This document shows positions 41,968 to 57,105 of a stretch of 64,000 nt of DNA, one piece after another (within the stretch, counting starts at the first letter, position 1; every line of letters starts with the position of its first letter). This stretch comes from a virus: IMG/VR virus record IMGVR_UViG_3300045988_161245, positions 32,001 to 96,000 of that record, one strand, 5' to 3'. The notes beneath the pieces were generated by a model. It made no database searches, was not told the DNA's origin, and was given only the letters and a program-made list of their open reading frames with translations. The position numbers were made by a program, and so were the translations under genes.

Positions 41968-41998
41968 TTTAGAAGTAGATATTAAGGAGGAATTATTT

Positions 41999-42298
41999 AT
42001 GGCTCAACGACCATATACAGAGCTACAAAGATATTTGAGAAAACTTTATAATAAAGGAACTATTTTTCTTATGTGGGCAGATAGAAAAGAATTAATAGAA
42101 ACTATAAATGCTAAAAGTAATGGAAAACTTTTAAAGAGAGCATCTTCTATTAATAAAGTTTTAGAAGAACGAAAAATCAATTTTCGTATAAAACCAATAA
42201 CAAAACAAATTACTTTTGTAGATGAAAATGGAAATAAAATTAGAAGAAGATATAAAAGTGCATGGCGCATTATAAAAATTCCAAAGGAGGAAAAATAA
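41999..42298 (+). CDS. hypothetical basic protein
   Basis: AAGGAGGAA SD precedes the start. Confidence 0.65.
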   Translation: MAQRPYTELQRYLRKLYNKGTIFLMWADRKELIETINAKSNGKLLKRASSINKVLEERKINFRIKPITKQITFVDENGNKIRRRYKSAWRIIKIPKEEK

Positions 42299-42301
42299 TT
42301 T

Positions 42302-43552
42302 ATGATAACTGTAATTGATTCTATCATGGGATCTGGTAAAACCAGTTGGGCAATTCAACACGTTAATGAAGCTGATTACTGTAATGATCGTTTTCTTTAT
42401 ATAACTCCATTCTTAGATGAAGTAAAACGTATTATGGATAAAACGGATGTCGATTTCTTCCAACCACAAAACAGAGGAAAGGGCAAATTAAATAATATCA
42501 ATATGTTATTTCAGAAAGGTTCTAATATTGCTTCTACCCACGAACTATTTAAAAATTTTGATGAAAATACTCGATCTAACATAAGAGAAATTTCACAAAC
42601 ACTTAATTACACTCTTATTCTTGATGAGGTATTAAATGTAATTGAACCTTATACAGAATTAAAACAAGGTGATTTACGAATTCTTAAGCAAGGCGGTTGG
42701 ATTACAATTGACGAAGATGGCTTTGTTATATGGAATGAAAAAGAATATAAACTGGATAGCAAATATAACGACATTAAACAATTAGCAATCACAAAATCAC
42801 TGCTATGTATTAATGACACTATTCTTCTTTGGAGATATCCACCAGAAATTTTTTCTTATTTTAAAAATATTTATATTCTTACATATATGTTTGATGCAAG
42901 TATTTTAAAATATTATTTTGATGTATATCATATCGACTATACAGTAAAAAGTATTATACTTGAAAATGGATTTTATAAAATTGTAGATTATTATAAACCA
43001 GATACAACTAAATATCAGGATATCATTAATATTTACGAAGGTAAACTTAATGAAAATATTCCATGTAAACTTACATCATTTTCAAGTAGCTGGTTTGATA
43101 CTGCAAATAAAAATTATACAGATAAATTAAAAAATAACATTTACAATTATTTTACAAATATTATTAATTCTTCATCAAAAGATATTATGTGGACTTGTTT
43201 TAAGAAAGCAAAAAACAAACTAAAAGGTAAGGGATATACAAAACAGTTTGTTCCATGTAATTGTAGATCAACAAATGATTATAATGAAAAATCTACATTA
43301 GTTTATTGTTGCAATATCTTTTTTCATCCAGGAATAACTAACTTCTTTTCAAAACACAATTTAACATTAAATGCAAATAAATATGCTTTATCAGAAATGA
43401 TTCAATGGATTTGGAGAAGTAAAATAAGAAATGATGAAAAAATTAATATTTACATTCCTTCTGTCCGTATGAGAATGCTTCTCAAAGAATGGTTAAAATT
43501 AGATGATGAGAAAATTAATGAAAAAAAGTTTTTAGGAAGTCAAACTTCCTAA
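42302..43552 (+). CDS. P-loop NTPase (helicase/ATPase-like)
   Basis: Walker A DSIMGSGKTSW and Walker B YTLILDEVLN. Confidence 0.6.
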   Translation: MITVIDSIMGSGKTSWAIQHVNEADYCNDRFLYITPFLDEVKRIMDKTDVDFFQPQNRGKGKLNNINMLFQKGSNIASTHELFKNFDENTRSNIREISQTLNYTLILDEVLNVIEPYTELKQGDLRILKQGGWITIDEDGFVIWNEKEYKLDSKYNDIKQLAITKSLLCINDTILLWRYPPEIFSYFKNIYILTYMFDASILKYYFDVYHIDYTVKSIILENGFYKIVDYYKPDTTKYQDIINIYEGKLNENIPCKLTSFSSSWFDTANKNYTDKLKNNIYNYFTNIINSSSKDIMWTCFKKAKNKLKGKGYTKQFVPCNCRSTNDYNEKSTLVYCCNIFFHPGITNFFSKHNLTLNANKYALSEMIQWIWRSKIRNDEKINIYIPSVRMRMLLKEWLKLDDEKINEKKFLGSQTS

Positions 43553-43687
43553 AATTGAAAAATTAGGGCTTTCGATGCCAATAAAATAAAGGGATCTCAA
43601 TTTTGATTCCTTAAAAGAAAAAATAAAAAAATTTATAAAAAGAGCTATATAAAAATAAAACCAATTTTATACAATCAAACCAATTTC

Positions 43688-43948
43688 GAACGAACAATTT
43701 TGAAGCGTTAGCGAAAAATTGTGAAGTGACTCCAAATGAACGAAGCTTTAGCGTAGTGAATGCGGTGAAGCACTGTCGGAACGACAGGATAGTTAATTTA
43801 AAATATTTGATTATAAATATTTATTATAAATTTGGATTATACTTTACTGGTGTTCCACCAGGTACTGCCGCACTCACTTCGCTTACGCTACGTTCATTTG
43901 TCATCACTACGCTATATGTTTCGCTGCGCTTCACATCTAGCTTCGTTC
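43688..43948. repeat. composite imperfect inverted repeat (about 85-bp arms) around an AT-rich spacer; origin-like
   Basis: The left arm 43688-43772 and the reverse complement of the right arm 43862-43948 share TGAAGCG, AGCGAAA, AAATGAACG(A/T)AGC, AGCG(T/A)AGTGA. GAACG(A/T)AGC boxes occur in both orientations. The spacer 43790-43850 is almost pure A/T. Confidence 0.75.
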
Positions 43949-44227
43949 TATTTGATTTTATTATTTATTATCTATTTTTATTGTCAATATCATTATCTAT
44001 TCAGATAAATAAATTCCAACATAACTCACAACTAAATAGAGAAGAAATTAATAGTCAGGTGTGAAATAACACATTTGCACTTTTTGTGAATAAAAGATTT
44101 TTCTATTAAGAAGAATTTTATATAACCTACTACCCTTCAGCCCTTCACATTTAGTAGGTTATGCAACTTATCAACCTCGCACAGAAAGGATTAATACCAA
44201 TTATGTTAAAAGGAGTAAACACTAAAT

Positions 44228-44527
44228 ATGAATACAGAAGTAAACACAGACAACGTTGCACTTACACAGAGATTATCATCTAAGACTACTAAAAATTATT
44301 ATACAGGCGGTACATTTCCTGCTATACCATCTCGTGAAGAATTTCATCGCTATGCATCAAATGTATTAAATTTATATGCTTTTGAGACTGATTATCCCCC
44401 ATTTCCTAGTTGTAATATTAATGCTGCAGCTTCTTCTATTGGATGGACAAAAAGTAATAATAAAAATAAGGGAAATAAATACAAATTTAAATCAACTAAA
44501 AATTCTACTAAGAAAGATCATCAATAA
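44228..44527 (+). CDS. hypothetical protein with lysine-rich tail
   Basis: AAAGGAG SD precedes the start. Confidence 0.6.
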   Translation: MNTEVNTDNVALTQRLSSKTTKNYYTGGTFPAIPSREEFHRYASNVLNLYAFETDYPPFPSCNINAAASSIGWTKSNNKNKGNKYKFKSTKNSTKKDHQ

Positions 44528-44533
44528 TGTAAG

Positions 44534-47317
44534 GTGGTGATTATCATTAGTGAATTTGGAATTAAAATTAAAAATATCAGTGCTGGTACATTATATGATG
44601 TTAATTTAGGCACAAGAGATTATTTCTCATACACTGAAGCAATGCTTAATAATAGTTTATTTTCTGCTTTTCTTATAAAGAATGGTCTTAATGTATATAA
44701 AGGTGAATCTACTAGAGATATTATTTGCTTAGACTTTGACTTTGGTACAAGATCTTATGAGGATGAGCATAAACGAATTGAGCAGTTGTATAAAAATTCT
44801 GATGGCGAATTAAAGGAACGTCTTAAATACACTTTGGAGAAAGTTGAGAATAACAAGGATCTCTATGATGAGAAAAAGCGTGAGCAGATCAGAGATAAAT
44901 TCTACAACGAAGGTGTAGATGTTACTTATAAAACTAAGAATAAAGATGGCACTATTAAAAGTGAAGAAACAATTCACTATGAGATGTTGTTTCGAACCAG
45001 TGCTAAAGCAAAGCTTGGACAGGTTATCTTTATAAACTCTGAACTTTATGAAGTGGCTTACGAATGGTTAACTATCGGACTTGGAAAACTAATGACAGAT
45101 GACAATGCAAAAATTGTTGAGATGTCTGCCTATGCTCCACTTACTACATCTACCATCGTTGGAACTAAGTATATTCCTGTAGAGGATATTCTCATTCTTA
45201 GGGACCAAGATTCATTTTTTAAGACAATGGCTAACATTGTTCGTGCAGAAGATTACGTGGACTCTAAGGGTCGAATTTGTAAGAAATGTGTCGTAGACAA
45301 GAAGGTTACCGAAGTCAAGAATACACTTTGGGATGGCATGGGACTGATTGAAGCTGATTATTTTAAAGACTGCAGAAATGCTTATAATCCGGATTGGACT
45401 GTTAAGATTAATGGCATGGCTTTAATGAGACATCATTTATTTAAGATGTGTGGTTTTAAATCTCATATACAGTTATTTTTTAAGGATTGGTGTGAGAAAA
45501 CCGGTAATGATTATGAAACTTACCAGGTCCAAGACATGTTTGGTCATTGGCATTATTTGAAAGACATTAAGATTATCACTACTGACAACGCCATCAAATG
45601 GAAAAAATTTAAGGATTTAATGGGCGGCTCATTAGAATCTGCATATGAGTATTGGTGCAATAAGGTAAATGAAGATGGCAGCGTGTTCGGTATTGTAAAA
45701 ACCGATCATCCTAGTAAACTTGGTGAATATCAACAGCTCAGTTATCAGATGGTTAATACTCTCCCATGTACCAAAGATGATGTAAGGGATATTGCAAGCA
45801 CCAGTATTGAATATGTGGAGTTACTGAAGCAGGATAATAATGAGTTTGAGAAATTCTTAAGAAAAAATGCTAATGAGGTAAACCACTATGAGATGATGGC
45901 TGATTTATATGATCACAACCATGAATTTGGCAATAGTACATTTTTCAGACATGAGAAGTCAAAAATTATTTCCGCATATGTACATAAGCTTAGAAAAGGC
46001 AAGATTGTTGTGAACGGAGATAATTTAACTGTTTGTGGTAATCCATACGCTCTTCTACTCTATTCTGTTGGTGAGGATTTTACAAAAGATCCTACCCTTC
46101 AACCAGAATCTGGAACTATTCAATGTTATACAACAAGATTTAAACATGATGAATTTCTATGTGCATTTCGCAATCCGCATAATTCCCCAAATAATATTTG
46201 TTATTTTCACAATGTTTACAGTGATGAAATGGAAAAATACTTTGAATTTTCTTCAAATATTGCTGCAGTGAACTGTATTTGTACTGATGTACAACCACGT
46301 TTAAATGGTTGCGATTTTGACAGTGACTTCGTTTTAGCCACAAATCAGCCTACTATGGTAAGATGTGCAGCTTATTGCTATAAACACTACCCTACTATTG
46401 TTAATGATTTAAAAGAAAGTGGCGTGGTTTATAAAAGTAACAAATCAGAATATGCACGTATGGATAATACATTTTCTAAATCAAGAATCGGAATTGGATA
46501 TTCTAGTAATTTGGCACAGCTTGCCATGACTTATTACTGGAGTGAATTACAGGGTGATAGTCCAGATCCAAAAAGACTTGATGAGCTATCAGATAATTTC
46601 GTAATTCTAAGCGTTCTTGCTCAAGTAATAATCGATAGCTGTAAAAGACTCTATGAAATTGATGGAATTAAAGAGATTGATCGTATTAGCAAACTTCCAT
46701 GTATGACAATGAAAAAAGAAGTAATTGACAAAAATGGAAATAAAAGAATGAAAAAGTGTGACTTCCCTGAATTTATGAAATACACAAGAGAAATTGCTGT
46801 TACTAAGGATGGTAAAGAGCTTCCACAAGAAGATATTGAGGAATCCAAGAACAAATTAAAAGGACGAATCAATAAAGATCTTATATGCCCAATGAACTGG
46901 TTGCAGGAATGGTTGGATAAAATCCAGGGAGCAAGCACTAAGGTTACTACTCCTACTGAGAATTTCTTTATTAAGATGACAGGTGAAGGAAATTATAATC
47001 AAATGACCAAAATTATGACTACCATAGAAGAATATGATTCATATATAAAAAATATGCAATTATTATGTAGTGATAACGAAACATACTATGATTTAATTGC
47101 ACAAAAAGCGGCAGACATGGTGAAGGAAATTTCAAAAATGAAAATTAGAAATGTTGTCACTATTAATCGTCTTATTGAAATCAGTTTAGGAATAAGTACA
47201 GAAAAAGGTAGATCGAGTTATAGAAAAAGTAATCCACAAAAATATGCTAGAAAAACACTTAATCTTTTGTATAAATATAGCAAAGAAAAATTTTTAAATA
47301 ACTTTGTTTGCGAATAA
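44534..47317 (+). CDS. single-subunit two-barrel RNA polymerase, YonO / RdRP-like
   Basis: 927 aa. LNGCDFDSDFVLATNQ (DNA 46313-46327) matches the DxDxD metal site, cf. NADFDGD of beta-prime and DbDGD of cellular RdRPs. AFRNPHNSPNN upstream matches the R-x-P-x-x-H element. The start is probably downstream of the track GTG (see findings). Confidence 0.6.
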   Translation: MVIIISEFGIKIKNISAGTLYDVNLGTRDYFSYTEAMLNNSLFSAFLIKNGLNVYKGESTRDIICLDFDFGTRSYEDEHKRIEQLYKNSDGELKERLKYTLEKVENNKDLYDEKKREQIRDKFYNEGVDVTYKTKNKDGTIKSEETIHYEMLFRTSAKAKLGQVIFINSELYEVAYEWLTIGLGKLMTDDNAKIVEMSAYAPLTTSTIVGTKYIPVEDILILRDQDSFFKTMANIVRAEDYVDSKGRICKKCVVDKKVTEVKNTLWDGMGLIEADYFKDCRNAYNPDWTVKINGMALMRHHLFKMCGFKSHIQLFFKDWCEKTGNDYETYQVQDMFGHWHYLKDIKIITTDNAIKWKKFKDLMGGSLESAYEYWCNKVNEDGSVFGIVKTDHPSKLGEYQQLSYQMVNTLPCTKDDVRDIASTSIEYVELLKQDNNEFEKFLRKNANEVNHYEMMADLYDHNHEFGNSTFFRHEKSKIISAYVHKLRKGKIVVNGDNLTVCGNPYALLLYSVGEDFTKDPTLQPESGTIQCYTTRFKHDEFLCAFRNPHNSPNNICYFHNVYSDEMEKYFEFSSNIAAVNCICTDVQPRLNGCDFDSDFVLATNQPTMVRCAAYCYKHYPTIVNDLKESGVVYKSNKSEYARMDNTFSKSRIGIGYSSNLAQLAMTYYWSELQGDSPDPKRLDELSDNFVILSVLAQVIIDSCKRLYEIDGIKEIDRISKLPCMTMKKEVIDKNGNKRMKKCDFPEFMKYTREIAVTKDGKELPQEDIEESKNKLKGRINKDLICPMNWLQEWLDKIQGASTKVTTPTENFFIKMTGEGNYNQMTKIMTTIEEYDSYIKNMQLLCSDNETYYDLIAQKAADMVKEISKMKIRNVVTINRLIEISLGISTEKGRSSYRKSNPQKYARKTLNLLYKYSKEKFLNNFVCE

Positions 47318-47339
47318 AATTACGGTTAAACAAAAATTG

Positions 47340-47373
47340 ACCCTTAATAAAGTCAATAAAAATAAGGGTTTTA
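47340..47373 (+). terminator. intrinsic terminator
   Basis: Stem ACCCTTA / TAAGGGT followed by TTTT. The loop is large. Confidence 0.5.
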
Positions 47374-47596
47374 CAAGGATGCAACAATTACCACGTATAG
47401 GGAGAATAACGTGAAAGCACAGAGTTGTGTTAGTAGGCCCTCGCGCTATTGCCGAGTGCGCGTTATAAATATGGGTTCGCGAATTAAAATGTACAAACAG
47501 CTCACAGGGGTGAGGTGAGTGTATGGGTGACCATTCACAAATTGTGACTGCAGCTGGGCTAGGTTACGTAACTGGTCCAGTTGTGGTTTAAATTGA

Positions 47597-47670
47597 CGCA
47601 GGATAGAGAAGTTTGGTATCTCGTCAGATTCATGCTCTGAAGATCGACAGTTCAAATCTGTCTCCTGCAA
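47597..47670 (+). tRNA. tRNA with anticodon CAT (Met / initiator-like / possible Ile2)
   Basis: Hand-folded 74-nt cloverleaf: acceptor CGCAGGA/TCCTGCA (C1-A72 mismatch), D stem GAGA/TCTC, anticodon arm TCAGA-TTCATGC-TCTGA, T arm GACAG-TTCAAAT-CTGTC. Confidence 0.8.
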
Positions 47671-47707
47671 TTATTATCCTCTATTACGAGGAAATTTAGA
47701 ACGAAAG

Positions 47708-47893
47708 GTGTGTATTGTTATTAAAACAATTACAAAAGAGGGTATTCAGTCCCTTATTGATAAGAAAATCTTAAAGCCATACTCAGGTGGGTACATGAAT
47801 TCCAGAGGGTACCATGTGGGGTATTATAAAACCTGTGGAAACAAGAGGTATATTGAGGATTACTATGCAGATAGAGTGGAGAAATTAAAATAA
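47708..47893 (+). CDS. hypothetical small protein
   Basis: 61-aa track ORF. Its GTG lies within the AAAGGTG SD, and an in-frame ATT at 47720 sits at canonical spacing. Confidence 0.45.
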   Translation: MCIVIKTITKEGIQSLIDKKILKPYSGGYMNSRGYHVGYYKTCGNKRYIEDYYADRVEKLK

Positions 47894-47954
47894 GAAAAAT
47901 ACAACTGAATATATCGCATAAGGCGAAATACTTAAAGAAAGGTGGTTATTTACC

Positions 47955-49172
47955 ATCGAAACAAAAGTAAAATTTTATGATACAAATGCTGTTTTAGCAT
48001 TACAAAAAAATGTATTAGACAGTTATTTTTACATTAGCTCTACTACCCTTCAAGAATTAGAGCATATTAAAGTATCAAGAAATAAAGACGAAGAAACAAA
48101 ATATAAATCACGTAAAATATTACATATTTTGGATGAAAATACTGACAAGTATAAAGTTGTTATAACAGACAATTCTATCCTATCTATTATTGAATCAAAA
48201 GGTCTTGAAAATTCCCCAGATAATCAGATTTGTGCATGTGCTTCTACAATTGAAAATGTTATTTTTGTTACAAACGATCTTGCATGTAAAACAATTGCTA
48301 AATGGATTTTTGGTTTAGATGTTGAAAGTGCGATTGAAAATAATTTTGATTATTATAAAGGATACCAGGAAATAAGTCTGTCAGAAGAAAAGATGGCTTA
48401 TTTTTATGAACATCTTAATGAAAATACATTAAATCTTTTGATAAATGAATATGTACTGCTTAAGGATGAGAACGGAAATGAAGTAGATACATTAAAATGG
48501 GATGGTGAAGCTTACCAGTCAATTAGATGTAAACCATTTAAATCTAATATGTTTGGGACATTAAAACCATTAGATAATATTCAGGCATTTGCAATGGATT
48601 CAATTAACACTAATGATATTACAGTATTATACGGTAAGGCTGGTTCAGGTAAAACTACTCTTCCGCTTAATTATATTATGCAAGAAATTGAAAAGGGTAG
48701 ATTTAAAAAATGTTACATTATCTATTCTTATGAGCCATTAAAAAATGCAAAGACGCTTGGATTTGAAAAAGGTGATCATCTTACAAAACTTCTTTATTAT
48801 GGTTCTATTGGAAATATTCTTGCATCAAAATTTGGTGATATGCAGCAAGTAGAATATATGGTTGAACGTGGAATGTTAGATATTATTCCAACTGCAAATA
48901 TACGAGGTATAGAGCTTGAGTCGGATAGTATTTGCCTCGTAACAGAATCTCAGAACTTGGATGTTTATACTTTAAAAACAATAATTCAACGTTGTAAATC
49001 TGGATGTAAACAGATTTATGAGGGAGATATTATTGAACAGAAAGATACTAATATTCAAAATATCGGAATGAATAGACTTATTGACGTGTTTAAAGGTAAC
49101 GAAAGTTTTGGATGTGTCAAATTGAAAAATAACTATAGATCAAAGCTTAGTGAGCTTGCGGATCTTATGTGA
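47955..49172 (+). CDS. phoH: PIN-domain PhoH-like ATPase (PhoH2/YlaK type)
   Basis: Walker A VLYGKAGSGKTTL. The frame is open upstream of the track start (TTG 48129) and there encodes a PIN N-terminus ETKVKFYDTNAVLAL. AAAGGTGG plus 9 nt precedes ATC 47955, and no ATG, GTG or TTG is available. Confidence 0.75.
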   Translation: METKVKFYDTNAVLALQKNVLDSYFYISSTTLQELEHIKVSRNKDEETKYKSRKILHILDENTDKYKVVITDNSILSIIESKGLENSPDNQICACASTIENVIFVTNDLACKTIAKWIFGLDVESAIENNFDYYKGYQEISLSEEKMAYFYEHLNENTLNLLINEYVLLKDENGNEVDTLKWDGEAYQSIRCKPFKSNMFGTLKPLDNIQAFAMDSINTNDITVLYGKAGSGKTTLPLNYIMQEIEKGRFKKCYIIYSYEPLKNAKTLGFEKGDHLTKLLYYGSIGNILASKFGDMQQVEYMVERGMLDIIPTANIRGIELESDSICLVTESQNLDVYTLKTIIQRCKSGCKQIYEGDIIEQKDTNIQNIGMNRLIDVFKGNESFGCVKLKNNYRSKLSELADLM

Positions 49173-50111: not shown

Positions 50112-51485
50112 ATGGATTTTGAAAAAAGAATAAGTGATTATGGAATGACACCTGAACAGTATGAGGCTTCGTTTGCCGAAATAACTGCAAAAGTACAGGG
50201 AAACTCAGATAAAGATTGGACTGAAATTATTGATCAATATTCTATTCCACTATCTCGCAATACTCTTCGGAATGCTTGTAGCAATGTATATGGCAGCGTA
50301 TTCGTAAAAGAATATTTTGATGAAAAAAGAAGAAAAGAAATGGAAGTAAATAGTGAACCAACTACAGACGAACCGGCTCCTCTCTCGCTTCCAAGATATA
50401 AAGAACAGACAGATGTAAATAAGGATGGCTCTTTTACAAGTGATCGACTTATTGAGATTAATGAGGAAAACTTGAAAAATCCTGAATTTTTACTTAACGC
50501 GCATGGTTATGATCCACTCGAATGGGAACTTGTCTCTGCAAGAAACTCTATTTGGAATCAGGGTGGAAAATCTGGTGTTAAAAATCTGTATGCAAGCAAA
50601 ATCAATGTAAAACCTAGAACTGAAATTTCTCAGATTGAAATTGAAAAGTTTTACGAAGACTTAGTTAGAAACTATAAACCGACAAATAGAGATTATTTTA
50701 CAAAGCCAAAAGTTGATGATGGAGTTTTATATGAGATTCCAATCATGGATTTACATTATGGTAAGTTCGCATCAGGAAATCTTACAAACGGAGCATATGA
50801 TTATATTATAGCTGAAAAATGCTTTAATACGATTATAACCGAGGCTATTGAGGATATTAAATCAAGAAAAGTCGCAAAAATTCTTATGCCAATCGGCAAC
50901 GACCTTCTCCATTTTGATAATGTACAAGGAACAACAACTCGTGGTACAGCACAGGACACAAATATGAGACATCAGGAGATGTTTAAAGGATGCGTTGAAA
51001 TGCTTATTGATGGCATTACTGCATTATCTAAATTTGCTCCTGTTGAACTTATGTATGTCCCAGGAAACCATGATTTTTTAAGCTCTTGGCACGTAGTTAT
51101 GACATTATGGGCTTATTTTCATGAAGATCCAAATGTACTTGTTGATGTAGACATGCATCCAAGAAAATATTTTGAATGGGGCAATTCTCTTATTATGTAT
51201 GCTCATGGAGATAAAGAAGGTAAACGTGTAGACAAAGTAATGCAGGTTGAAGCCAGAGAAGCATTTGGAAGAACAAAATACCATGAAGCACATCTCGCAC
51301 ACCTTCATTCGGAACAGGCAATTAAAGAACTTGGTGGTTTAATCATTCGTAATCTCCCATCTGTTACAGGCGAGGATAACTGGAGTCACGAATCCGGATT
51401 TGTTGGTGCTGTAAGAAAATGCATTTGTTTCATTTGGGACAAAGAAAAAGGTCTTAAAGGAACTAATAACATTGTTATTGACTGA
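50112..51485 (+). CDS. calcineurin-like metallophosphoesterase (Mre11/SbcD-type nuclease-like)
   Basis: Motifs appear in order: IMDLHYG (DxH), PIGNDLLHFDN (GD), VPGNHDF (GNHD), YAHGD, LAHLHSE (GHxH-like). Confidence 0.7.
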   Translation: MDFEKRISDYGMTPEQYEASFAEITAKVQGNSDKDWTEIIDQYSIPLSRNTLRNACSNVYGSVFVKEYFDEKRRKEMEVNSEPTTDEPAPLSLPRYKEQTDVNKDGSFTSDRLIEINEENLKNPEFLLNAHGYDPLEWELVSARNSIWNQGGKSGVKNLYASKINVKPRTEISQIEIEKFYEDLVRNYKPTNRDYFTKPKVDDGVLYEIPIMDLHYGKFASGNLTNGAYDYIIAEKCFNTIITEAIEDIKSRKVAKILMPIGNDLLHFDNVQGTTTRGTAQDTNMRHQEMFKGCVEMLIDGITALSKFAPVELMYVPGNHDFLSSWHVVMTLWAYFHEDPNVLVDVDMHPRKYFEWGNSLIMYAHGDKEGKRVDKVMQVEAREAFGRTKYHEAHLAHLHSEQAIKELGGLIIRNLPSVTGEDNWSHESGFVGAVRKCICFIWDKEKGLKGTNNIVID

Positions 51486-51600
51486 TGAAAATCAGTTTGA
51501 GTATAGACAATTAAATAATATGCCGAGCGTGGCGGACCCACGTATAAACAAAAAATAAAATTATAAAAATTTTTAGAAGAAAAAAAGGAGTAACAAAATT

Positions 51601-51923: not shown

Positions 51924-52076
51924 TAAATATAAAATCGTTATTTTATGTGATGTGATTTGCCGTGAGGCAATTACTTTTTTCGCTCATTATTATAAAATTT
52001 TCTGAAGAGGTGATGGTTAGTGCTGTCATCTCACATAAGATAACGAAATATTTTGATAAAAGGAAGTGATGAAGAA

Positions 52077-53033
52077 ATGGCAGTTGAACGAAGTAAACCT
52101 ATATTATTATATGACGCAGAAAAAGCTAAACAGGTTAATCCGGAAACATTAAGATTGTTTCAAAAATATCAAATTGATATGTCAATTAGAGACCTATCAG
52201 AAAAGACAATTAGGGGTTATAATTCTGATTTAATGCAGTGGTTCATTTATATGTATAATAACCAATTTAATCTATCTGTTCTTGAAGCAAAAGAAGAAGA
52301 TCTTGAAGAATATTATTTCTGGAGAAAACAGCAAGGTAATAATGTTAATCGTCAGAAACGTGTCATGTCTTCTATTTCCGCTTTCTATAAATTTCTTCGT
52401 AAGAAAAAACTCATTACAGAATCCCCAATGGAATTTATTGATAGACCAAAACAAGGACAACCTGTTGTTGTACAAACTTATTTAAAAAAGGAAGAAGTGC
52501 AATTTATGAGAGAAAAACTTTCTGAATATGGTGATGTTCAGTTACAGGTTTATGCTTTTTTATCTCTCACTACAATGGCCAGAGTTAATGCAATTGCTCA
52601 TTTGAAATGGGATCAAATCAATATGGAAGAACGTATTTGCTCTGATGTGCTTGAAAAAGAAGGTAAAATTGTAGAGCTTTCATTTAGTGAAGAAACTCGC
52701 GATTATATGAATGAATTACGTAAATATAGAGAAGACAATAATATAGATGATTATGGTTGGGTGTTCAAAACGGCTTATACAAATGAGAAACAATGTGTAA
52801 GTAATGATACTCTAAATGAATGGTGTAAAAAAATTGGTAATATGATTGGGCATCCTACATTACATTGTCATGATTGGAGACATAGCTATGCTAGTCTGCT
52901 TAAGGAAAATGGGGCAAGTTTAGAAGATGTTTCAGAAATGCTTAATCATGCAGGAACTGATGTTACTAAGAAATATTACATAAAGGTAGATCATTCTAAG
53001 GTTAGAAAAATTAAGGATTCAATCAAAATTTAA
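52077..53033 (+). CDS. tyrosine recombinase (XerC/D-phage integrase family)
   Basis: N-terminal SAM-like core-binding region, ARVNAIAHLKWDQI (Arg box), HCHDWRHSYASLL...LNHAGTDVTKKYY (HxxR...Y). ATG 52077 follows AAGGAAGTGA. Confidence 0.85.
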   Translation: MAVERSKPILLYDAEKAKQVNPETLRLFQKYQIDMSIRDLSEKTIRGYNSDLMQWFIYMYNNQFNLSVLEAKEEDLEEYYFWRKQQGNNVNRQKRVMSSISAFYKFLRKKKLITESPMEFIDRPKQGQPVVVQTYLKKEEVQFMREKLSEYGDVQLQVYAFLSLTTMARVNAIAHLKWDQINMEERICSDVLEKEGKIVELSFSEETRDYMNELRKYREDNNIDDYGWVFKTAYTNEKQCVSNDTLNEWCKKIGNMIGHPTLHCHDWRHSYASLLKENGASLEDVSEMLNHAGTDVTKKYYIKVDHSKVRKIKDSIKI

Positions 53034-53342
53034 TTTAGAAGTACATAATAGAGAAGGTAACACTTTTGATATTGACCATCTTAGTTTATGGTCCAACATA
53101 ACATTTTTGAATTTCTGTGGAATAACAGAGTATTACGACTGTTATCTTCTCTTCTATTATATTTGTTCTGTGGTGGAACATTTTATTCCCAAGACGCTTG
53201 CGACATCAGGTAGGTAAGAAGAGGCTGAAAAGCGGGGATTTGTTCTGGAAGTCTGCACCAGTACCTGATAAACAATAAATGTAGTCTAAAAAACAAAGAG
53301 GCAGCTACAAAAGTAACTGCCCATTGCCGATGAGATAGTCTT

Positions 53343-53540
53343 TTATTGACAATCATCATCTAATACGCTTGCAAAGTTCACAGCAAATTCTGCGTTAACC
53401 TTATCGGCATTAACAGAGATTGTGAGGCTTTGCGGATTATTATTAAAAATCATCCACAGTGCAGCGATTATAATTATAGTAAAACAAAGAAGTCGGATCG
53501 CTAACTTTGCAAGCTTAAGCTTGTTGTGTTCCCTTCTCAT
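53343..53540 (-). CDS. small membrane protein on the opposite strand
   Basis: Strong AGGAAGGAGGTGAAAT SD. The TM segment is IRLLCFTIIIIAALWMIF. It has its own terminator hairpin, GGCAG...CTGCC plus T-run, near 53290-53325. Confidence 0.6.
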   Translation of the reverse strand: MRREHNKLKLAKLAIRLLCFTIIIIAALWMIFNNNPQSLTISVNADKVNAEFAVNFASVLDDDCQ

Positions 53541-53574
53541 ATTTCACCTCCTTCCTAGCTATAAAGTAGCTAAC

Positions 53575-54200
53575 TGGTTCAGAGGGGAATATGTGAGCAG
53601 AACGCCCAGAATCATATAGACTTCTGATGTGAATGCACCGATCCTTTCCGGTCTTATCTTAAATGCCAGGTGCTATGTCAATAAGTTACAGTGTATCGGA
53701 GTAGTTGAAGTACTCTTCTACACTTTCTATTATGATTCATGGGCGTTAAATAAACAAGCCGGAACTTATGTTTGTTGCCCAGAATAGAAATATTCTGTTA
53801 TGCAGATAAGGAGCGTCTGCCATCGGAGAATGACATAGTTGACAAGTGCCTCAAAGTTATTCGCGCGTAGCCGATGTAAAAGAATCCGTGATTCATCATA
53901 CAGTGTTAGGACTGGAACCTTCCGACTGAGCGGAAGCAAATAATACTCTTCCTGATTTAGTCAGGATAGCTGGCGGACAGCGAAGTAACTACGCAAACAG
54001 AGAGATCCTGCTTTAGTGGACGATTCAAAATTGATGATGAGGTGTGATTGCTAACTATATCACCTCGGTAAAATAAAGAAAAATTAGTGAAATGCGTCCT
54101 GTGACGGTTCTGACAGGAAGTTAAAATAAAAATTGACCGAGTGATGAAGGGTCGGAATGGAGACCTAAAACCCATTTGATTGCAGGAGTGTTATCCTGCT
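53575..54200 (+). ncRNA. candidate large structured ncRNA, segment A (ROOL/GOLLD-like context; unclassified)
   Basis: About 620 nt with no credible ORF, visibly GC-richer, with many perfect 6-bp hairpins (53919-53936, 53950-53966, 54097-54118, 54182-54199). Directly abuts tRNA genes. Confidence 0.35.
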
Positions 54201-54202
54201 AT

Positions 54203-54293
54203 GGCAGGTATAGCTTAATTGGTAAAGCGTCATATTCAAATTCTGGAAAACATACAAATGAAGACTCCAGGTTCGAGTCCTGGTGCACTGCCC
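54203..54293 (+). tRNA. aberrant tRNA-like element, about 90 nt (class-II length; anticodon uncertain, CAA most consistent)
   Basis: Clean D arm GCTT-AATTGGTA-AAGC and T arm CCAGG-TTCGAGT-CCTGG. The acceptor pairs only GGCAG/CTGCC, with extra or bulged bases. The anticodon stem TCATA/TCTGG has a mismatch. The variable region is 20 nt. Confidence 0.45.
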
Positions 54294-54329
54294 TACAACT
54301 CAATTTTTATTGAGTATAAAATTTTATTT

Positions 54330-54411
54330 GGATGGATAGCGAAGTGGTTAAACGCTCCTGACTGTAAATCAGGCGGCTCTGCCTTCGAAGGTTCGAATCC
54401 TTCTCCATCCA
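54330..54411 (+). tRNA. tRNA-Tyr (GTA)
   Basis: Acceptor GGATGGA/TCCATCC, anticodon arm CCTGA-CTGTAAA-TCAGG, 13-nt variable arm, T arm GAAGG-TTCGAAT-CCTTC. Confidence 0.85.
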
Positions 54412-54509
54412 CTAAATAGGACTACTGTCCTATTCTATTATTCTTCTCTTTTCTTTGTATTTTTCATTTTCATGATTATTTCTCCAAGCTGGGCTTCGGT
54501 CCAGCGTCT

Positions 54510-54583
54510 TGGGATGTAGCTCAGTTTGGTAGAGCGCCTGATTTGGGGTCAGGAGGTCCAGGGTTCAAGTCCCTGTATTCCAA
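54510..54583 (+). tRNA. tRNA-Pro (TGG)
   Basis: Acceptor TGGGATG/TATTCCA (two G-U pairs), D arm GCTC-AGTTTGGTA-GAGC, anticodon arm CCTGA-TTTGGGG-TCAGG with G37, T arm CAGGG-TTCAAGT-CCCTG. Confidence 0.8.
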
Positions 54584-54589
54584 CTTTCC

Positions 54590-55195
54590 TATATACGACA
54601 TAATATTCCACAGGAGGCATGGTGTAGATTTTGCATACCTGTGACAGAAAAAAATAATGAACAAAAACATTCGAGGTTTTTACTGGGGCGTTGCGTGCAG
54701 TAAACCAGATTTGAGCTTGTGTGGCAAGTGCATTGAAGCTATCTGGACTGGTTCAGGTCTGAAAATAATTATGAACCATGGATAACATGATTGTGAGTAG
54801 GTAATAAGAGAAATAGATGGTCGTACTATCCGCTTGCATTTAATAGGAATAATTTTAGAAGAAACACCGTCAGGTACCTAGAATTGAGTAAGAAAAGAAA
54901 ATCTTTATCAGAGAGATTCGATCCAGACTCAGGTGACAAATTTATTTCTTCCTATCGGTTAGGAAGACTGCGCCAGTGTTCATGAACAAACTCCCACCTA
55001 AAAAGACGGAAGCGCCAATATGCTCTGACGTGTACAGGCTTTAAAATTGTCGGTACAAATGCCATGTAGTTCACCTGCCTCTCGTGTTTATATTTCAAAA
55101 CTGGAGAAACTGACGGTGCTTTGATGTGTATACCTACTAATGTAGATATAAGTATTAGTTTATCACAGATTTATTGTTATTGTAAATGAGTTTTT
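54590..55195 (+). ncRNA. candidate large structured ncRNA, segment B (unclassified)
   Basis: About 600 nt with no ORF, GC-richer. Has nested helices CCAGAT..ATCTGG around AGCTT..AAGCT (54705-54746), CTTCCTA-tcggt-TAGGAAG (54948-54966), and CACAGG..CCTGTG. Confidence 0.35.
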
Positions 55196-55271
55196 ATCTA
55201 CTTGGTCTAACTGGTTATGACAGACGGACATTTTGTGCCTTCAGATACAGGTTCAAAGCCTGTAGTAGATA
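55196..55271 (+). tRNA. tRNA-like element lacking a canonical anticodon loop
   Basis: Perfect acceptor ATCTACT/AGTAGAT, D arm with GG, T arm ACAGG-TTCAAAG-CCTGT. The anticodon arm folds as an interrupted 6-7 bp stem with the 5-nt loop TTTTG. Confidence 0.45.
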
Positions 55272-55389
55272 TTAAAGATAGGGATCTTATAACTGATCAT
55301 TATAAGAGAAAGGTGGATACTCGCACCACTGCCCTATCTATTTTTATTAATATTAATTGTATATGCGAGTGGAAAGCGAGTAATGTTTT

Positions 55390-57105
55390 ATGAAAAAGGA
55401 AACACAAGGATGTAAATATTGTGGTTACGAAAAAACATCAAAAAGAACAAAGAAACCGTTTGATGAATTTATAAAAGAATTGAAAGAAAGTCGTGGAGAT
55501 GAATTTACATACGTATCTGGCTATAATGGTGCAAGTTCAAAAGCTATTTTTAGACATCATATGAAAGATGGAAGTCATCATGATTTTAAAATGGTTCCAA
55601 AAAATTTAATTAATGGCACATATTATTGCCCTTGCTGCTCTGGATATCAAATTTATATAGGATATAATGATTTTAATACTAGAAGACCTGAGTTGGTAAA
55701 ATATTTATTAAATCCAGAGGAAGGTACAAAATATAGTGAATATAGCAATCATATATTAGAATGGAAATGTCCGGATTGTGGAAATATATTGAAAAAGAGA
55801 ATATCTGAAGTTAGTACAAGAGGTATTTGTTGTCCTAGATGCTCTGATGGGATAAGTTATCCAAACAAATTTATGTACAATTCATTACTCCAAATAAAAG
55901 ATTATTTAAATTATATTGAAAGAGAATTTCGTCCTGATTGGTGCAAATATACATATAATGAAAAAGAATGCTTTGGCGTATATGATATTTATTTCGAAAA
56001 AGATAATAAAAAATATATAGTTGAAATGGATGGTGGACTTGGACATGGGAATCGAACTTATACAAAATCGGATAAATCAAAAGATGAATTACTGGATATA
56101 GATAAAATAAAAGATCTACTTGCAAAAGAACATGATATTGAAGTTATACGAATAAACTGTGATTATGGATCAAATGATAGATATTCTTTTATATTAAATG
56201 AAGTTTTAAATTCTAAATTATCTTCAATTCTTAATTTATCTTTAATAGATTTTAAAAAATCAAATATTTTATCACAACAATCATTATTATTAAAAACTGT
56301 TGAATTATGGAATGATGGATATTCTGTAGGAAAAATAAGTTCTGAAATTGGTGTTTTTTCAGATACAGTAACACACTATCTTAAATCGGCACAAAAATAT
56401 GGTATATGCAATACATATTCAATAAAGGAAAGTAGAAATAGGTCTATATCAAATAAAATTGTGTGTATTACAACAAATAAAGAGTTTGATTCTATTGTTG
56501 ATGGTGCAAAATTTTATAATACATTAGCTACTTCTGTAAGTAAATGTTGTAGACATAAAGCTGGATATGCTGGTTATTATAATGGACAAAAACTTATTTG
56601 GATGTATAAAACGGAATATGATAATTTTCCAAAAGAAAAATTAAAAGATTATGTCCCAAAGGAAGATAATAATTATACAAAAGTTGTATGTTTAAATACA
56701 GGCGAGATATTTGATGGTATTATTTATGCTGCTGAAAAATATGGAGTGCTAGATAGTGGAATAACGGCATGTTGTTCAAAAACAACACATTATTCAGGTA
56801 AAGATTCTGATGGAAATATTTTGGTTTGGAGATATTTAGATGAATATAAACAAATGACAAAAGAAGAAATTAATACACTTCTATCATATAAAAGTATGGG
56901 TAAAAAGAAAGTTATATGTCTTAATACCTTACAAATATTTGATAATGCATACGAAGCAAGTGTGTGGTGTGGGTTAAATAATAAATTAATACTACAAAGT
57001 TGCTGTAGAAACGAAGTTAGATTTGCAGGAGTTCATCCTGATACCGGTGAAAAATTAAATTGGTTGTATTATAAGGATTATTTGAAAGAAAAAGAGGCTG
57101 CTTAA
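55390..57105 (+). CDS. homing-endonuclease-like protein: Zn ribbons, PD-(D/E)xK-like core and three DNA-binding repeats
   Basis: N-terminal CxxC pairs (CKYCG, CPCCSG, CPDCG, CPRCSD). YDIYFEKDNKKYIVEMDGGLGH resembles the Vsr/DUF559-type nuclease core. Three ~50-aa repeats, V(C/I)(I/L)xT...CC...(A/S)G...W(M/R/L)Y, resemble NUMOD/IENR-type modules. Confidence 0.55.
   Translation: MKKETQGCKYCGYEKTSKRTKKPFDEFIKELKESRGDEFTYVSGYNGASSKAIFRHHMKDGSHHDFKMVPKNLINGTYYCPCCSGYQIYIGYNDFNTRRPELVKYLLNPEEGTKYSEYSNHILEWKCPDCGNILKKRISEVSTRGICCPRCSDGISYPNKFMYNSLLQIKDYLNYIEREFRPDWCKYTYNEKECFGVYDIYFEKDNKKYIVEMDGGLGHGNRTYTKSDKSKDELLDIDKIKDLLAKEHDIEVIRINCDYGSNDRYSFILNEVLNSKLSSILNLSLIDFKKSNILSQQSLLLKTVELWNDGYSVGKISSEIGVFSDTVTHYLKSAQKYGICNTYSIKESRNRSISNKIVCITTNKEFDSIVDGAKFYNTLATSVSKCCRHKAGYAGYYNGQKLIWMYKTEYDNFPKEKLKDYVPKEDNNYTKVVCLNTGEIFDGIIYAAEKYGVLDSGITACCSKTTHYSGKDSDGNILVWRYLDEYKQMTKEEINTLLSYKSMGKKKVICLNTLQIFDNAYEASVWCGLNNKLILQSCCRNEVRFAGVHPDTGEKLNWLYYKDYLKEKEAA

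What the first reader, a model, noticed from the sequence alone, without database searches (positions are those of the whole stretch)
53541..55390. ORF-poor 2.3-kb island: tRNA cluster bracketed by two ~600-nt GC-enriched, hairpin-dense segments (large ornate ncRNA candidates)
No credible plus-strand ORF lies between the recombinase gene (ends 53033) and the homing-endonuclease-like gene (starts 55390). Two stretches, about 53575-54200 and 54590-55195, are visibly richer in G+C than the flanking AT-rich coding DNA. Both are packed with perfect 6-7 bp hairpins, some nested. Examples are CTTCCG/CGGAAG (53919-53936), TCCTGA/TCAGGA (53950-53966), TCCTGT/ACAGGA (54097-54118), GCAGGA/TCCTGC (54182-54199), CCAGAT..ATCTGG enclosing AGCTT..AAGCT (54705-54746), and CTTCCTA/TAGGAAG (54948-54966). 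These stretches bracket tRNA-Tyr, tRNA-Pro and two tRNA-like elements. Very large structured RNAs of the ROOL and GOLLD classes are known to reside in Firmicute phages next to, or around, tRNA genes. Size, phage context and tRNA adjacency all fit. I cannot reproduce those consensus structures from memory, so this could equally be an unclassified large RNA.
Basis: partly seen in the sequence, partly recalled or inferred. Interest (0 to 1): 0.85.

Follow-up and report, generated by a model that had tools for sequence, protein, structure and literature searches.

The report
Mosaic phage tRNA and small-RNA island
The 2.4-kb gene-poor stretch is not a giant ornate RNA but a patchwork of about a dozen short, independently swappable pieces: two tRNAs, two odd tRNA look-alikes, two tiny opposite-strand protein genes and a few short folded RNAs of unknown class.

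Summary
The observation largely holds. There is no credible plus-strand ORF in 53034-55389, G+C is 0.38-0.46 against 0.27-0.33 in the flanks, all quoted hairpins are at the stated coordinates, and tRNA-Tyr, tRNA-Pro and two tRNA-like elements are present. The hairpin excess is modest (p about 0.04) and folding energies are unremarkable.

The ROOL/GOLLD reading fails. No Rfam family other than tRNA matches, even at E<=10, although the same search finds a genuine GOLLD in a related phage.

Relatives show that both "600-nt segments" are composites of cassettes that are present or absent independently. Two cassettes carry conserved minus-strand protein genes of 65 aa and 37 aa.

Two plus-strand pieces are supported as structured RNAs by compensatory base changes. 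A2 (53778-53999, 222 nt) has 10 of 54 pairs compensated. B1 (54658-54721, 65 nt, two hairpins) has 7 of 15 pairs compensated over 21 distinct copies, and in relatives it usually lies upstream of tRNA arrays. Both tRNA-like genes keep acceptor, D and T arms but have expanded, variable anticodon loops.

The best reading is a hyperplastic tRNA/small-RNA/moron island in an SPbeta-like phage of gut Lachnospiraceae. The functions of the new RNA pieces are unknown. Interest is moderate.

The parts
53034..53173 (+). 3' flank of the tyrosine-recombinase gene, with a terminator-like hairpin (ATAACAG/CTGTTAT, 53122-53145) followed by CTTCTCTTCTATTAT
   Evidence: It is the only part of 53034-53540 kept in L002, L079 and L130. 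The 150-nt window 53050-53199 folds with z = -3.56. The motif TTCTATTAT recurs at 53152, 53725 and 54433.
53343..53540 (-). Gene for a 65-aa protein with an N-terminal hydrophobic segment. It has an AGGAGG ribosome-binding site 6 nt upstream and a terminator-like hairpin at 53322..53299.
   Evidence: ORF and ribosome-binding site. Terminator. There are 22 protein clusters at 80-97% identity, nearly all exactly 65 aa. No Pfam or PHROG match.
53541..53771 (.). A1: spacer that travels with the 65-aa gene. It should hold that gene's promoter, and it has a plus-strand promoter-like site (TTGAAG-17-TATTAT, 53705-53733) facing A2.
   Evidence: A1 is co-present or co-absent with the 65-aa gene in relatives: absent in L002/L068/L086, present in L001/L124/L143/L147/L151. 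Promoter scan; the number of sites is not above chance.
53778..53999 (+). A2: 222-nt structured RNA candidate with about 10 helices. No Rfam family matches.
   Evidence: Nine distinct sequences give 54 predicted pairs, of which 10 keep pairing through changes on both sides (helices 1, 2, 3, 7, 9). On 8 sequences: 99.1% of cells paired, 8 compensated pairs, 0/500 shuffles as high, and 0-1 in the slid controls. One-sided changes preserve G-U pairs on the plus strand only. ORFs inside are frameshifted in relatives. Model R1 finds no further copy in 0.8 Mb of related loci.
54022..54201 (+). A3: about 175-nt non-coding cassette with four hairpins, inserted between A2 and tl1. Its status as an RNA is untested.
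   Evidence: Present in the window, L002/L130, L148-150 and, without A2, in L079/L139. Absent in L001/L003/L004/L068/L086. MFE z = -2.39. Only 2 IMG/VR contigs carry it and they are near-identical, so covariation cannot be tested.
54204..54290 (+). tl1: tRNA-like gene. Acceptor stem (with a bulged A), D arm and T arm are intact, but 15-52 variable nucleotides sit where the anticodon loop should be.
   Evidence: Rfam tRNA 36.5 bits with 18 extra nt in the anticodon loop. Ten distinct copies show a T-stem pair switching A-U to U-A, and the nominal anticodon reads CAA, UAA, UUA, UUG or ACA. L143 carries a 52-nt insert that forms a long hairpin.
54330..54412 (+). tRNA-Tyr (GTA)
   Evidence: ARAGORN. 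Rfam 64.6 bits.
54415..54434 (+). Terminator-like hairpin AATAGGAC-TACT-GTCCTATT, followed by a T-rich tract and CTATTAT
54510..54584 (+). tRNA-Pro (TGG)
   Evidence: ARAGORN. Rfam 63.8 bits.
54585..54657 (+). B0: spacer with the hairpin CACAGG...CCTGTG. It includes a promoter-like site (TTTGCA-17-AATAAT, 54630-54658) just before B1.
   Evidence: Kept in close relatives. The stem reads CACCGG/CCGGTG in L002. Promoter scan.
54658..54721 (+). B1: 65-nt two-hairpin RNA motif. Its parts are UGAACA, then hp1 (A5CC/GGU5), then hp2 (a CYRG/CYRG outer stem, a GGC..AAA internal loop, and an inner 4-5 bp stem with a tetraloop), then AUUUGAGCUU.
   Evidence: Model R2 finds one copy in the window with filters off (88.9 bits) and 33 copies in related loci. 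Over 21 distinct sequences: 96.2% of cells paired, 7 of 15 pairs compensated, 36 compensated cells, and at most 1 in the slid controls. There are six different Watson-Crick versions of the outer stem. The overlapping ORF at 54657 is not conserved.
54722..54843 (+). It is conserved only in close relatives.
   Evidence: The boundary at 54843/54844 is set by the L004 deletion.
54844..55191 (-). Moron-like cassette absent from L004. It carries the 37-aa basic protein gene 55065..54952, with a ribosome-binding site GAGGCAGGTGA and a promoter-like site (TTTACA-18-TAAACT, 55186..55157).
   Evidence: Deletion in L004/L072/L127/L081. ORF. phrog_21154 match, E 4.3e-5. Same start, length (37 aa), ribosome-binding site and stop at 59-65% amino-acid identity in L051/L109 and L043/L044/L046, plus a paralogue in L068/L086. 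Deposited in nr as a hypothetical protein of Caudoviricetes sp..
55195..55272 (+). tl2: tRNA-like gene. It has a perfect acceptor stem, a D arm and a T arm (ACAGG-UUCAAAG-CCUGU), but a 10-nt anticodon loop and one stem mismatch.
   Evidence: ARAGORN calls it only with the intron option, with 3 extra nt. The Rfam tRNA model does not. In L147 and L143 the same slot, with the same flanks, holds a canonical tRNA-Glu(TTC). L086 has 3 further nt in the loop.
55390..57105 (+). Context: 571-aa protein with a treble-clef zinc-finger match. It occupies a slot that holds different free-standing endonuclease genes in relatives.
   Evidence: Weak DUF4379 match (21.6 bits, below the 24.5-bit Pfam cut-off) and phrog_4538. 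The slot holds an HNH_3 gene in L148-150, a LAGLIDADG_3 gene in L151, and nothing in L147.

Best explanation
The stretch 53034-55389 is a hyperplastic cargo island of a large SPbeta-like temperate phage of gut Lachnospiraceae. It lies between the tyrosine-recombinase gene and a slot used by free-standing endonuclease genes.

The island is built from at least a dozen short cassettes that are gained, lost, duplicated and replaced independently. They are:
- two canonical tRNA genes;
- two tRNA-derived genes that keep the acceptor/T/D 'top half' but have expanded, variable anticodon loops;
- two small protein genes on the opposite strand (morons), each with a ribosome-binding site and a promoter-like site, and for the 65-aa gene also a terminator-like hairpin;
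- several plus-strand non-coding pieces.

Shown here:
- The mosaic structure.
- The coding nature of two cassettes.
- The absence of any known large RNA.
- Conserved base-paired structure on the plus strand for A2 (222 nt) and B1 (65 nt).

Inferred:
- The plus-strand pieces are transcribed with the tRNAs, in the same direction as all flanking genes. The tRNA and tRNA-like structures then serve as RNase P / RNase Z cutting points that release the neighbouring pieces as small stable RNAs.
- B1 sits 180-470 nt upstream of tRNA arrays in most relatives. It may act in cis as a leader of the untranslated tRNA operon, for processing, stability or read-through.
- The raised G+C simply reflects the density of structured RNA genes in an AT-rich genome.
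- The mosaicism is driven by the adjacent homing-type endonucleases and by recombination between repeated tRNA-like and hairpin+TTCTATTAT sequences.
For: - No large-RNA family: with a positive control for GOLLD in L013.
- Independent presence or absence of cassettes. L001/3/4 lack 54007-54201. L002 lacks 53163-53774. L004 lacks 54844-55191. L079 has A3 without A2. L151 has another module in place of A2/A3. B1 occurs alone in L015/L025/L029 and others. The B1 unit is duplicated in tandem in L002/L068/L079/L081.
- Protein genes.
- A2 structure.
- B1 structure. B1 context upstream of tRNA arrays.
- tRNA-like genes. The tl2 slot is allelic with tRNA-Glu.
- Endonuclease slot.
- Phage type and host: the terminase is ~41% identical to those of SPbeta-like Bacillus phages. 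Recombinase relatives lie in Roseburia, Mediterraneibacter, Konateibacter and Acetatifactor genomes.
- Related islands hold other small Rfam RNAs (drum and skipping-rope in L136; GOLLD in L013), so tRNA regions of this phage group are general ncRNA hot spots.
Against: - No transcript data exist. Co-transcription, processing at the tRNA-like elements and stability of A2/A3/B1 are all inferred.
- The A2 covariation rests on shallow diversity. There are nine distinct sequences and essentially three or four diverged lineages, all above about 85% identical outside the variable helices.
- Two A2 cells break pairs.
- The B1 alignment was fitted to the model, which favours the structure.
- Thermodynamic z-scores are weak.
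- Promoter-like sites are no more frequent than in shuffled sequence.
- A3, B0 and B1b have no independent support as RNAs.
Confidence: 0.75

Rival explanations
1. One large ornate RNA is present: GOLLD-like with tRNAs in its linker, ROOL-like, or a new class. Its two roughly 600-nt halves bracket the tRNA genes.
For: The phage context and tRNA adjacency fit what is reported for GOLLD and ROOL, and tRNAs are sometimes found in the GOLLD linker (PMC12286853; PMC5737381). A relative of this phage does carry a GOLLD next to a tRNA. G+C is raised.
Against: No GOLLD, ROOL or other large-RNA hit appears even at E<=10. The L013 GOLLD region has no similarity to the window. The supposed halves are composites whose pieces occur separately. 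348 nt of the right half is a deletable cassette encoding a conserved minus-strand protein. Folding energy shows no excess.
Confidence: 0.03
2. A2 and B1 are not free-standing RNAs. They are cis-acting parts of the tRNA operon transcript or of the DNA, such as promoter-proximal leaders, terminators, antiterminators or protein-binding palindromes.
For: In relatives B1 lies just after a protein gene or another RNA gene and 180-470 nt before tRNA arrays. A -10-like hexamer ends 0-2 nt before its invariant UGAACA in every context seen. hp1 has the A-tract/stem/U-tract shape of a bidirectional terminator. In L136 it follows a drum RNA by about 3 nt, and drum RNAs are reported to be followed by terminators (PMC5737381). 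A2 is preceded by TTCTATTAT in both of its contexts.
Against: hp1 has only two G-C pairs, which is weak for a terminator. G-U-preserving one-sided changes in both elements argue for RNA rather than DNA palindromes. A2, with about 10 helices over 222 nt, is elaborate for a simple leader. B1 is single-copy in the 64-kb window, so it is not a general terminator of this phage.
Confidence: 0.3
3. The non-coding pieces are decaying debris. They would be remnants of tRNA genes, introns and recombination scars left by homing endonucleases, with no function of their own.
For: The island is highly plastic and sits next to an endonuclease slot. tl1 and tl2 look like damaged tRNAs. One relative carries a premature stop in the 37-aa gene. 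A3 is rare. Folding z-scores are weak.
Against: Compensatory changes keep helices in A2, B1 and the tl1 T stem. B1 is conserved at 65-80% identity in distant relatives where the flanking DNA is unalignable. The tl1 core is nearly invariant while only its insert varies.
Confidence: 0.12
4. The left part is a type I toxin-antitoxin module. The 65-aa membrane protein (53540..53343) would be the toxin, and a plus-strand antisense RNA starting inside or upstream of it and running into A1 would be the antitoxin.
For: The protein is small, has one hydrophobic helix, is on the opposite strand and has its own terminator. A plus-strand promoter-like site at 53453-53480 lies antisense to the gene's 5' part. 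The window 53500-53649 folds with z = -3.17 on the plus strand. From my own knowledge, SPbeta carries type I systems (bsrG/SR4, yonT/SR6).
Against: At 65 aa with a 35-aa polar tail it is long for a type I toxin. No family match exists. A2 cannot be the antitoxin because it occurs without the gene in L002/L068/L086. The promoter call is at chance level.
Confidence: 0.08

Closest known systems
tRNA region of phage T4 (eight tRNAs, the small stable RNAs 'species 1 and 2', and the free-standing endonuclease gene segB). This comparison rests on my own knowledge and was not tested here.
   Same: Both have a cluster of phage tRNA genes interspersed with small stable non-tRNA RNAs of unknown function. 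In T4 these are processed by the host tRNA-maturation enzymes, and a homing-type endonuclease gene sits in or beside the cluster. The region is variable between related phages.
   Different: The host phylum and phage type differ: an SPbeta-like siphovirus of Lachnospiraceae against a T4-like myovirus. There is no sequence relation apart from a tRNA-Pro that is 94% identical over 64 nt. The island here also carries opposite-strand protein morons and tRNA-like genes with variable anticodon loops. Processing is not shown.
GOLLD RNA (Rfam RF02032)
   Same: It is phage or prophage encoded, lies next to tRNA islands and sometimes encloses tRNAs (PMC12286853). A relative of this phage has one (L013:1224-1698).
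   Different: No covariance-model match in the window and no sequence similarity. The candidate segments are separable cassettes rather than one RNA of more than 800 nt.
ROOL RNA (Rfam ROOL family)
   Same: The context is similar: Firmicute, phage-associated, near tRNAs. The size of each segment is near ROOL's 581-nt average (PMC5737381).
   Different: No covariance-model match at E<=10. The largest coherent structured piece is 222 nt with simple hairpins. No multistem-junction or pseudoknot architecture was found.
Small, highly conserved phage-associated RNA motifs of unknown function (drum RF02958, skipping-rope RF02924, RAGATH-18 RF03064)
   Same: They are of similar size (65-220 nt) and are supported by covariation. 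They sit in intergenic DNA of Firmicute phages with no obvious cis target. drum and skipping-rope lie in the homologous island of L136, with drum directly abutting a B1 copy. RAGATH-18 is elsewhere in this window.
   Different: A2 and B1 match none of these models. Their distribution is narrower: A2 was found only in the closest relatives.
tRNA-like processing signals (MALAT1 mascRNA, plant mitochondrial t-elements)
   Same: In those cases a tRNA-shaped element without decoding capacity sits at the border of another RNA, where RNase P or RNase Z cleavage defines the ends. tl1 directly follows A2/A3, and tl2 precedes the next gene.
   Different: Those are eukaryotic or organellar cases. Cleavage here is untested. 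tl2 is allelic with a real tRNA, so it may simply be a derived tRNA gene.

Membership tests
GOLLD RNA (RF02032) | Match to the Rfam covariance model at or above its gathering score (150 bits), which captures the universally conserved 3' domain | tested here: not met
   No hit on either strand of 52900-55600 at E<=10, in the whole window at the gathering score, or in 38000-48500 at E<=1. Positive control: L013:1224-1698 scores 166.7 bits.
GOLLD RNA (RF02032) | One contiguous conserved RNA, often more than 800 nt, possibly with tRNAs in a linker | tested here: not met
   The pieces on both sides of the tRNAs occur independently of each other in relatives. One piece encodes a minus-strand protein.
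GOLLD / ROOL | Phage or prophage location next to tRNA genes | tested here: met
   SPbeta-like phage with tRNA-Tyr and tRNA-Pro inside the island. This feature is contextual and not sufficient on its own.
ROOL RNA | Match to the Rfam ROOL covariance model | tested here: not met
   No hit at E<=10 on either strand.
ROOL RNA | [quoted passage not shown] | tested here: not met
   The largest covariation-supported unit is 222 nt. It consists of local hairpins plus one long-range helix. Pseudoknots were not searched for exhaustively.
tRNA (RF00005), applied to tl1 | Cloverleaf scoring above the Rfam gathering score (29 bits) | tested here: met
   36.5 bits in the window and 36-43 bits in relatives.
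tRNA (functional decoder), applied to tl1 and tl2 | A 7-nt anticodon loop with a conserved anticodon | tested here: not met
   tl1 has 15-52 extra nt, and the nominal anticodon varies among CAA, UAA, UUA, UUG and ACA. tl2 has a 10-nt loop (13 nt in L086) and one stem mismatch.
tRNA (functional), applied to tl1 and tl2 | Processing by RNase P/Z, CCA addition and aminoacylation | not testable with these tools
   This needs in vitro cleavage and charging assays or tRNA sequencing.
phrog_21154 (small phage proteins of unknown function), applied to the 37-aa ORF | Profile match over the conserved C-terminal part | tested here: met
   E 4.3e-5, with residues 9-36 aligned to profile positions 19-46 of 47. 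The frame, start and stop are conserved at 59-65% identity.
drum / skipping-rope / other Rfam small RNAs, applied to A2, A3, B0 and B1 | Covariance-model match | tested here: not met
   None at E<=10 in the window island, although both families are found in L136.
Type III toxin-antitoxin RNA or CRISPR-like repeat array, applied to the tandem B1 units | Tandem identical repeats adjacent to a toxin or cas gene, or repeats separated by unrelated spacers | tested here: not met
   There are at most two units. The variable part is itself a conserved, covarying hairpin. No terminal repeat and no adjacent nuclease gene in a fixed position were seen.

The most novel reading that the evidence does not exclude
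A2, B1 and the tRNA-like genes could together form a previously undescribed phage RNA toolkit. A2 would be the founding member of a new ~220-nt structured RNA class that is always placed just upstream of tl1. tl1 would be a tRNA mimic whose acceptor/T/D half is frozen while its anticodon arm is hypervariable (15-52 nt). That pattern is expected for an RNA in an arms race, for example a decoy or sponge for host tRNA-targeting defence nucleases or tRNA-modifying or tRNA-binding factors. B1 would be a dedicated leader that keeps RNA polymerase reading through the long untranslated tRNA/ncRNA operon.
Probability: 0.15. Interest if true: 0.65.

Novelty: new member of a known kind. Interest (0 to 1): 0.38.

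Why it matters
It removes a false positive for the rare giant RNAs ROOL and GOLLD. It also shows how raised G+C plus scattered hairpins next to phage tRNAs can mimic them. On the positive side, it documents that tRNA islands of SPbeta-like Lachnospiraceae phages are exchange hot spots. Those hot spots collect small structured RNAs: known ones in relatives (GOLLD, drum, skipping-rope) and two unclassified, covariation-supported ones here. They also collect tRNA-derived genes with deliberately non-decoding anticodon arms. These are concrete, short and testable candidates for phage RNA functions in abundant human-gut bacteria.

Tried and rejected
- **Rfam, gathering and E<=10 thresholds, both strands.** Nothing but tRNAs. 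The weak hits (Plastid-ycf2, 6A, YrlA, CRISPR-DR25 and others) are far below their gathering scores and mostly overlap tRNAs.
- **blastn and megablast against 50,697 GenBank phages.** Only tRNA matches, so there is no annotated close relative.
- **Coding explanation for A2/A3.** Six-frame tblastn of all stop-to-stop pieces found distant protein-level conservation only for the minus-strand 37-aa frame. ORFs in A2 and around tl1 are split by frameshifts in relatives.
- **CM search with the A2 model in 0.8 Mb of related loci.** No further copies.
- **Exact-pattern scans.**
  - The tl1 16-mer gave 18 chance hits in unrelated contigs.
  - My first metagenome pattern for A2 contained a typing error (an extra G). 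Its zero result is meaningless.
  - The A2 and A3 patterns show narrow distributions.
- **B1 as a small ORF (MNKN...).** Rejected: there is a stop after 9 codons in L029 and a frameshift in L025.
- **B1 as a CRISPR-like or ToxI-like repeat.** Rejected; see the membership test.
- **B1 as a genome-wide terminator.** Rejected: it is single-copy in the window.
- **tl1 as an intron-containing tRNA-Leu.** Rejected because the would-be anticodon is not conserved.
- **Similarity of the window to the GOLLD of relative L013.** None.
- **Promoter and terminator scans.** Promoter-like sites are at chance level. Terminator-like sites number 5 against 1.2 expected, but several are tRNA arms.
- **Literature search for phage tRNA-like genes with expanded anticodon loops.** Nothing directly relevant was found.

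Full report
**1. What is in the sequence**

The stretch between the stop of the tyrosine-recombinase gene (52053-53033; Phage_integrase) and the next long gene (55390-57105) has no plus-strand ORF above 66 aa. It is richer in G+C than its flanks: 0.38-0.46 against 0.27-0.33 and lower.

ARAGORN and Rfam agree on tRNA-Tyr (54330-54412) and tRNA-Pro (54510-54584). Rfam also reports a weak tRNA at 54204-54287: 36.5 bits, with 18 extra bases in the anticodon loop.

The statistical excess is small, however.
- Perfect stems of >=6 bp number 6 against 1.9 expected and 7 against 2.4 expected, each with p about 0.04.
- Sliding-window folding energies in the two segments are not unusual, with z mostly between -2 and +1. 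The strong z-scores fall on the tRNAs.

**2. Test of the ROOL/GOLLD idea**

cmscan of the whole window at gathering thresholds found only tRNAs and an unrelated RAGATH-18 near 5 kb. cmscan of 52900-55600 with permissive filters up to E = 10, on both strands, found nothing resembling a large RNA.

The test is meaningful for this lineage. The same tool finds a bona fide GOLLD (RF02032, 166.7 bits, gathering score 150) in L013. That phage has a recombinase 73% identical to the window's, and the GOLLD lies just upstream of a tRNA-Ile. The GOLLD region has no similarity to the window.

GOLLD and ROOL are indeed described as phage-borne, near tRNA islands, more than 800 nt and about 581 nt long. tRNAs are sometimes found inside the GOLLD linker (PMC12286853; PMC5737381).

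**3. Relatives and the mosaic**

GenBank phages hold no close relative; only the tRNAs match. The terminase is about 41% identical to those of SPbeta-like Bacillus phages. Recombinase relatives sit in genomes of Roseburia, Mediterraneibacter, Konateibacter, Acetatifactor and other Lachnospiraceae. The window therefore comes from an SPbeta-like temperate phage of gut Lachnospiraceae.

Loci were collected in four ways:
- through the recombinase (67 IMG/VR loci; 14 genome loci);
- through DNA patterns;
- through a metagenome scan;
- through contigs encoding the 65-aa protein.

These show that the island DNA is shared, at about 94% identity, only by the closest relatives, and always with block-wise differences:
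- L001/L003/L004 lack 54007-54201.
- L002 lacks 53163-53774 and has another small gene there.
- L004 lacks 54844-55191 and has extra tRNAs.
- L079 has the 54022-54201 piece without the 53778-53999 piece.
- L151 has a different module in place of both.
- The unit at 54658-54721 is duplicated in tandem in several relatives.

The two '600-nt segments' are therefore strings of separable cassettes, not units.

**4. Two cassettes are protein-coding on the other strand**

*The 65-aa gene (53540..53343).* It has an AGGAGG site 6 nt upstream, a hydrophobic N-terminal segment and a terminator-like hairpin at 53322..53299. Its product has 22 database clusters at 80-97% identity, nearly all exactly 65 aa.

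*The 37-aa gene (55065..54952).* It matches phrog_21154 (E 4.3e-5). It is recovered by tblastn at 59-65% identity in L051/L109 and L043/L044/L046, with the same start, length, stop and upstream GAGGCAGGTGA. A paralogue lies in L068/L086. One relative (L001) has a premature stop. The 348-nt block that L004 lacks (54844-55191) is this gene with its promoter-like site.

**5. Two plus-strand pieces behave as structured RNAs**

*A2 (53778-53999).*
- Nine distinct sequences give a consensus of 54 pairs in about 10 helices.
- Ten pairs keep pairing through changes on both sides. For example, CAGAAUA/UAUUCUG becomes CAAAGUA/UACUUUG. GAAUGAC/GUUAUUC becomes GAGAGUA/UGCUCUU or GAACGAC/GUCGUUC. UCCUGA/UCAGGA becomes UCCUAG/CUAGGA.
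- On eight sequences, no shuffle of 500 reaches the observed values, and the slid controls give 0-1 compensated pairs against 8.
- One-sided changes give G-U on the plus strand, which would be A-C on the minus strand.
- ORFs inside A2 are frameshifted in relatives.
- Diversity is shallow, so this is support rather than proof.
- A model of A2 finds no other copy in 0.8 Mb of related loci.

*B1 (54658-54721).*
- It is a 65-nt motif of two hairpins that recurs in much more distant relatives, where the surrounding DNA no longer aligns.
- Across 21 distinct copies, 96.2% of cells pair and 7 of 15 pairs are compensated (36 cells). The slid controls give at most 1.
- The outer stem of the second hairpin exists in six Watson-Crick versions.
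- The ORF that starts at 54657 is not conserved.
- B1 is single-copy in the window.
- In most distant relatives it lies on the tRNA strand, just after a protein gene and 180-470 nt before a tRNA array. In L136 it abuts a drum RNA.

*A3 (54022-54201), B0 and B1b.* These have hairpins but no diversity with which to test them.

**6. The tRNA-like genes**

*tl1.* Its sequence is nearly invariant in the acceptor, D and T arms, and one T-stem pair switches A-U to U-A. The site of the anticodon loop carries a 15-52 nt insert of variable sequence, and the nominal anticodon is not conserved.

*tl2 (55195-55272).* It has a perfect acceptor stem and a good T arm but a 10-nt anticodon loop. In L147 and L143 exactly this slot, with the same flanks, holds a canonical tRNA-Glu.

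These are therefore tRNA-derived genes that cannot decode normally. Whether they are processed, charged or used as processing signals is untested.

**7. Synthesis**

The best-supported picture is a hyperplastic tRNA/small-RNA/moron island. The slot just downstream holds different free-standing endonuclease genes in different relatives:
- a 571-aa zinc-finger protein in the window;
- an HNH_3 gene in L148;
- a LAGLIDADG_3 gene in L151;
- nothing in L147.

A hairpin followed by TTCTATTAT recurs at cassette borders. Both give plausible means of shuffling.

By analogy with the T4 tRNA region (my own knowledge), the plus-strand pieces are probably co-transcribed with the tRNAs and released by tRNA-processing enzymes. 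B1's position suggests a cis role at the head of tRNA operons. These steps are inferred, not shown.

**8. Verdict**

The ROOL/GOLLD or large-RNA interpretation is refuted. The weaker claim, that unclassified structured RNA lies beside the tRNAs, holds for a 222-nt and a 65-nt element. Novelty is modest: new, narrowly distributed members of the broad class of small phage RNAs in a known kind of genomic region.

Noticed in passing
window 4996-5066 (-): RAGATH-18 RNA (RF03064), 64.8 bits against a gathering score of 44.9. It lies in the minus-strand half of the window.
   Followed up: no
window 38557-41620: A 3-kb stretch at the divergent strand switch has no ORF of 90 aa or more, only scattered ORFs of 45-88 aa. 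An Rfam E-value search of 38000-48500 found nothing but the tRNA-Met at 47597-47670.
   Followed up: partly
L013:1224-1698 (+): A genuine GOLLD RNA (RF02032, 166.7 bits) lies directly upstream of tRNA-Ile(TAT), in a phage whose recombinase is 73% identical to the window's. It is about 5 kb upstream of that gene. The window has only tRNA-Met in the corresponding region.
   Followed up: partly
L136:3912-3990 and L136:4850-4958 (+): A skipping-rope RNA (52.3 bits) and a drum RNA (46.4 bits) lie in the tRNA island of a related element. The drum RNA ends 3 nt before a copy of the B1 motif (L136:4961-5025).
   Followed up: partly
L148:1718-2323, L151:850-1674, L147 (no gene); window 55390-57105: The slot just downstream of the island holds different free-standing endonuclease-type genes in different relatives (HNH_3, LAGLIDADG_3, a 571-aa zinc-finger protein) or none. 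This fits endonuclease-driven mosaicism.
   Followed up: partly
window 51459-51507 (+): A weak look-alike of the B1 motif (14.5 bits, E 0.25) has two short hairpins followed by UUUGAG. It lies between the exonuclease gene and the HU-like gene. It may be chance.
   Followed up: no
L151, minus strand, between its B1 and B2 pieces (about 2190-2310): Another non-canonical tRNA-like sequence was read by eye. It has a good acceptor stem and T arm (GTGGG-TTCGAAT-CCCAC), a 7-bp anticodon stem with a 10-nt loop, and a long variable arm. ARAGORN does not call it.
   Followed up: no
window 54516-54579: The phage tRNA-Pro(TGG) is 93.8% identical over 64 nt to the tRNA-Pro of T4-like coliphages (more than 240 records). 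This is unexpectedly close for phages of different host phyla.
   Followed up: no
L143/L145/L146/L147, upstream of the HU-like gene: Relatives carry an IS605 OrfB/TnpB-like gene (Pfam OrfB_IS605, Cas12f1-like_TNB) next to the HU-like gene. The window has the exonuclease gene at that position.
   Followed up: no
window 53152, 53725, 54433 (+): The 9-mer TTCTATTAT, each time just after a hairpin, occurs three times inside the island and only twice in the other 61 kb. It lies at or near cassette borders. It could be a promoter -10 region or a recombination hot spot.
   Followed up: partly
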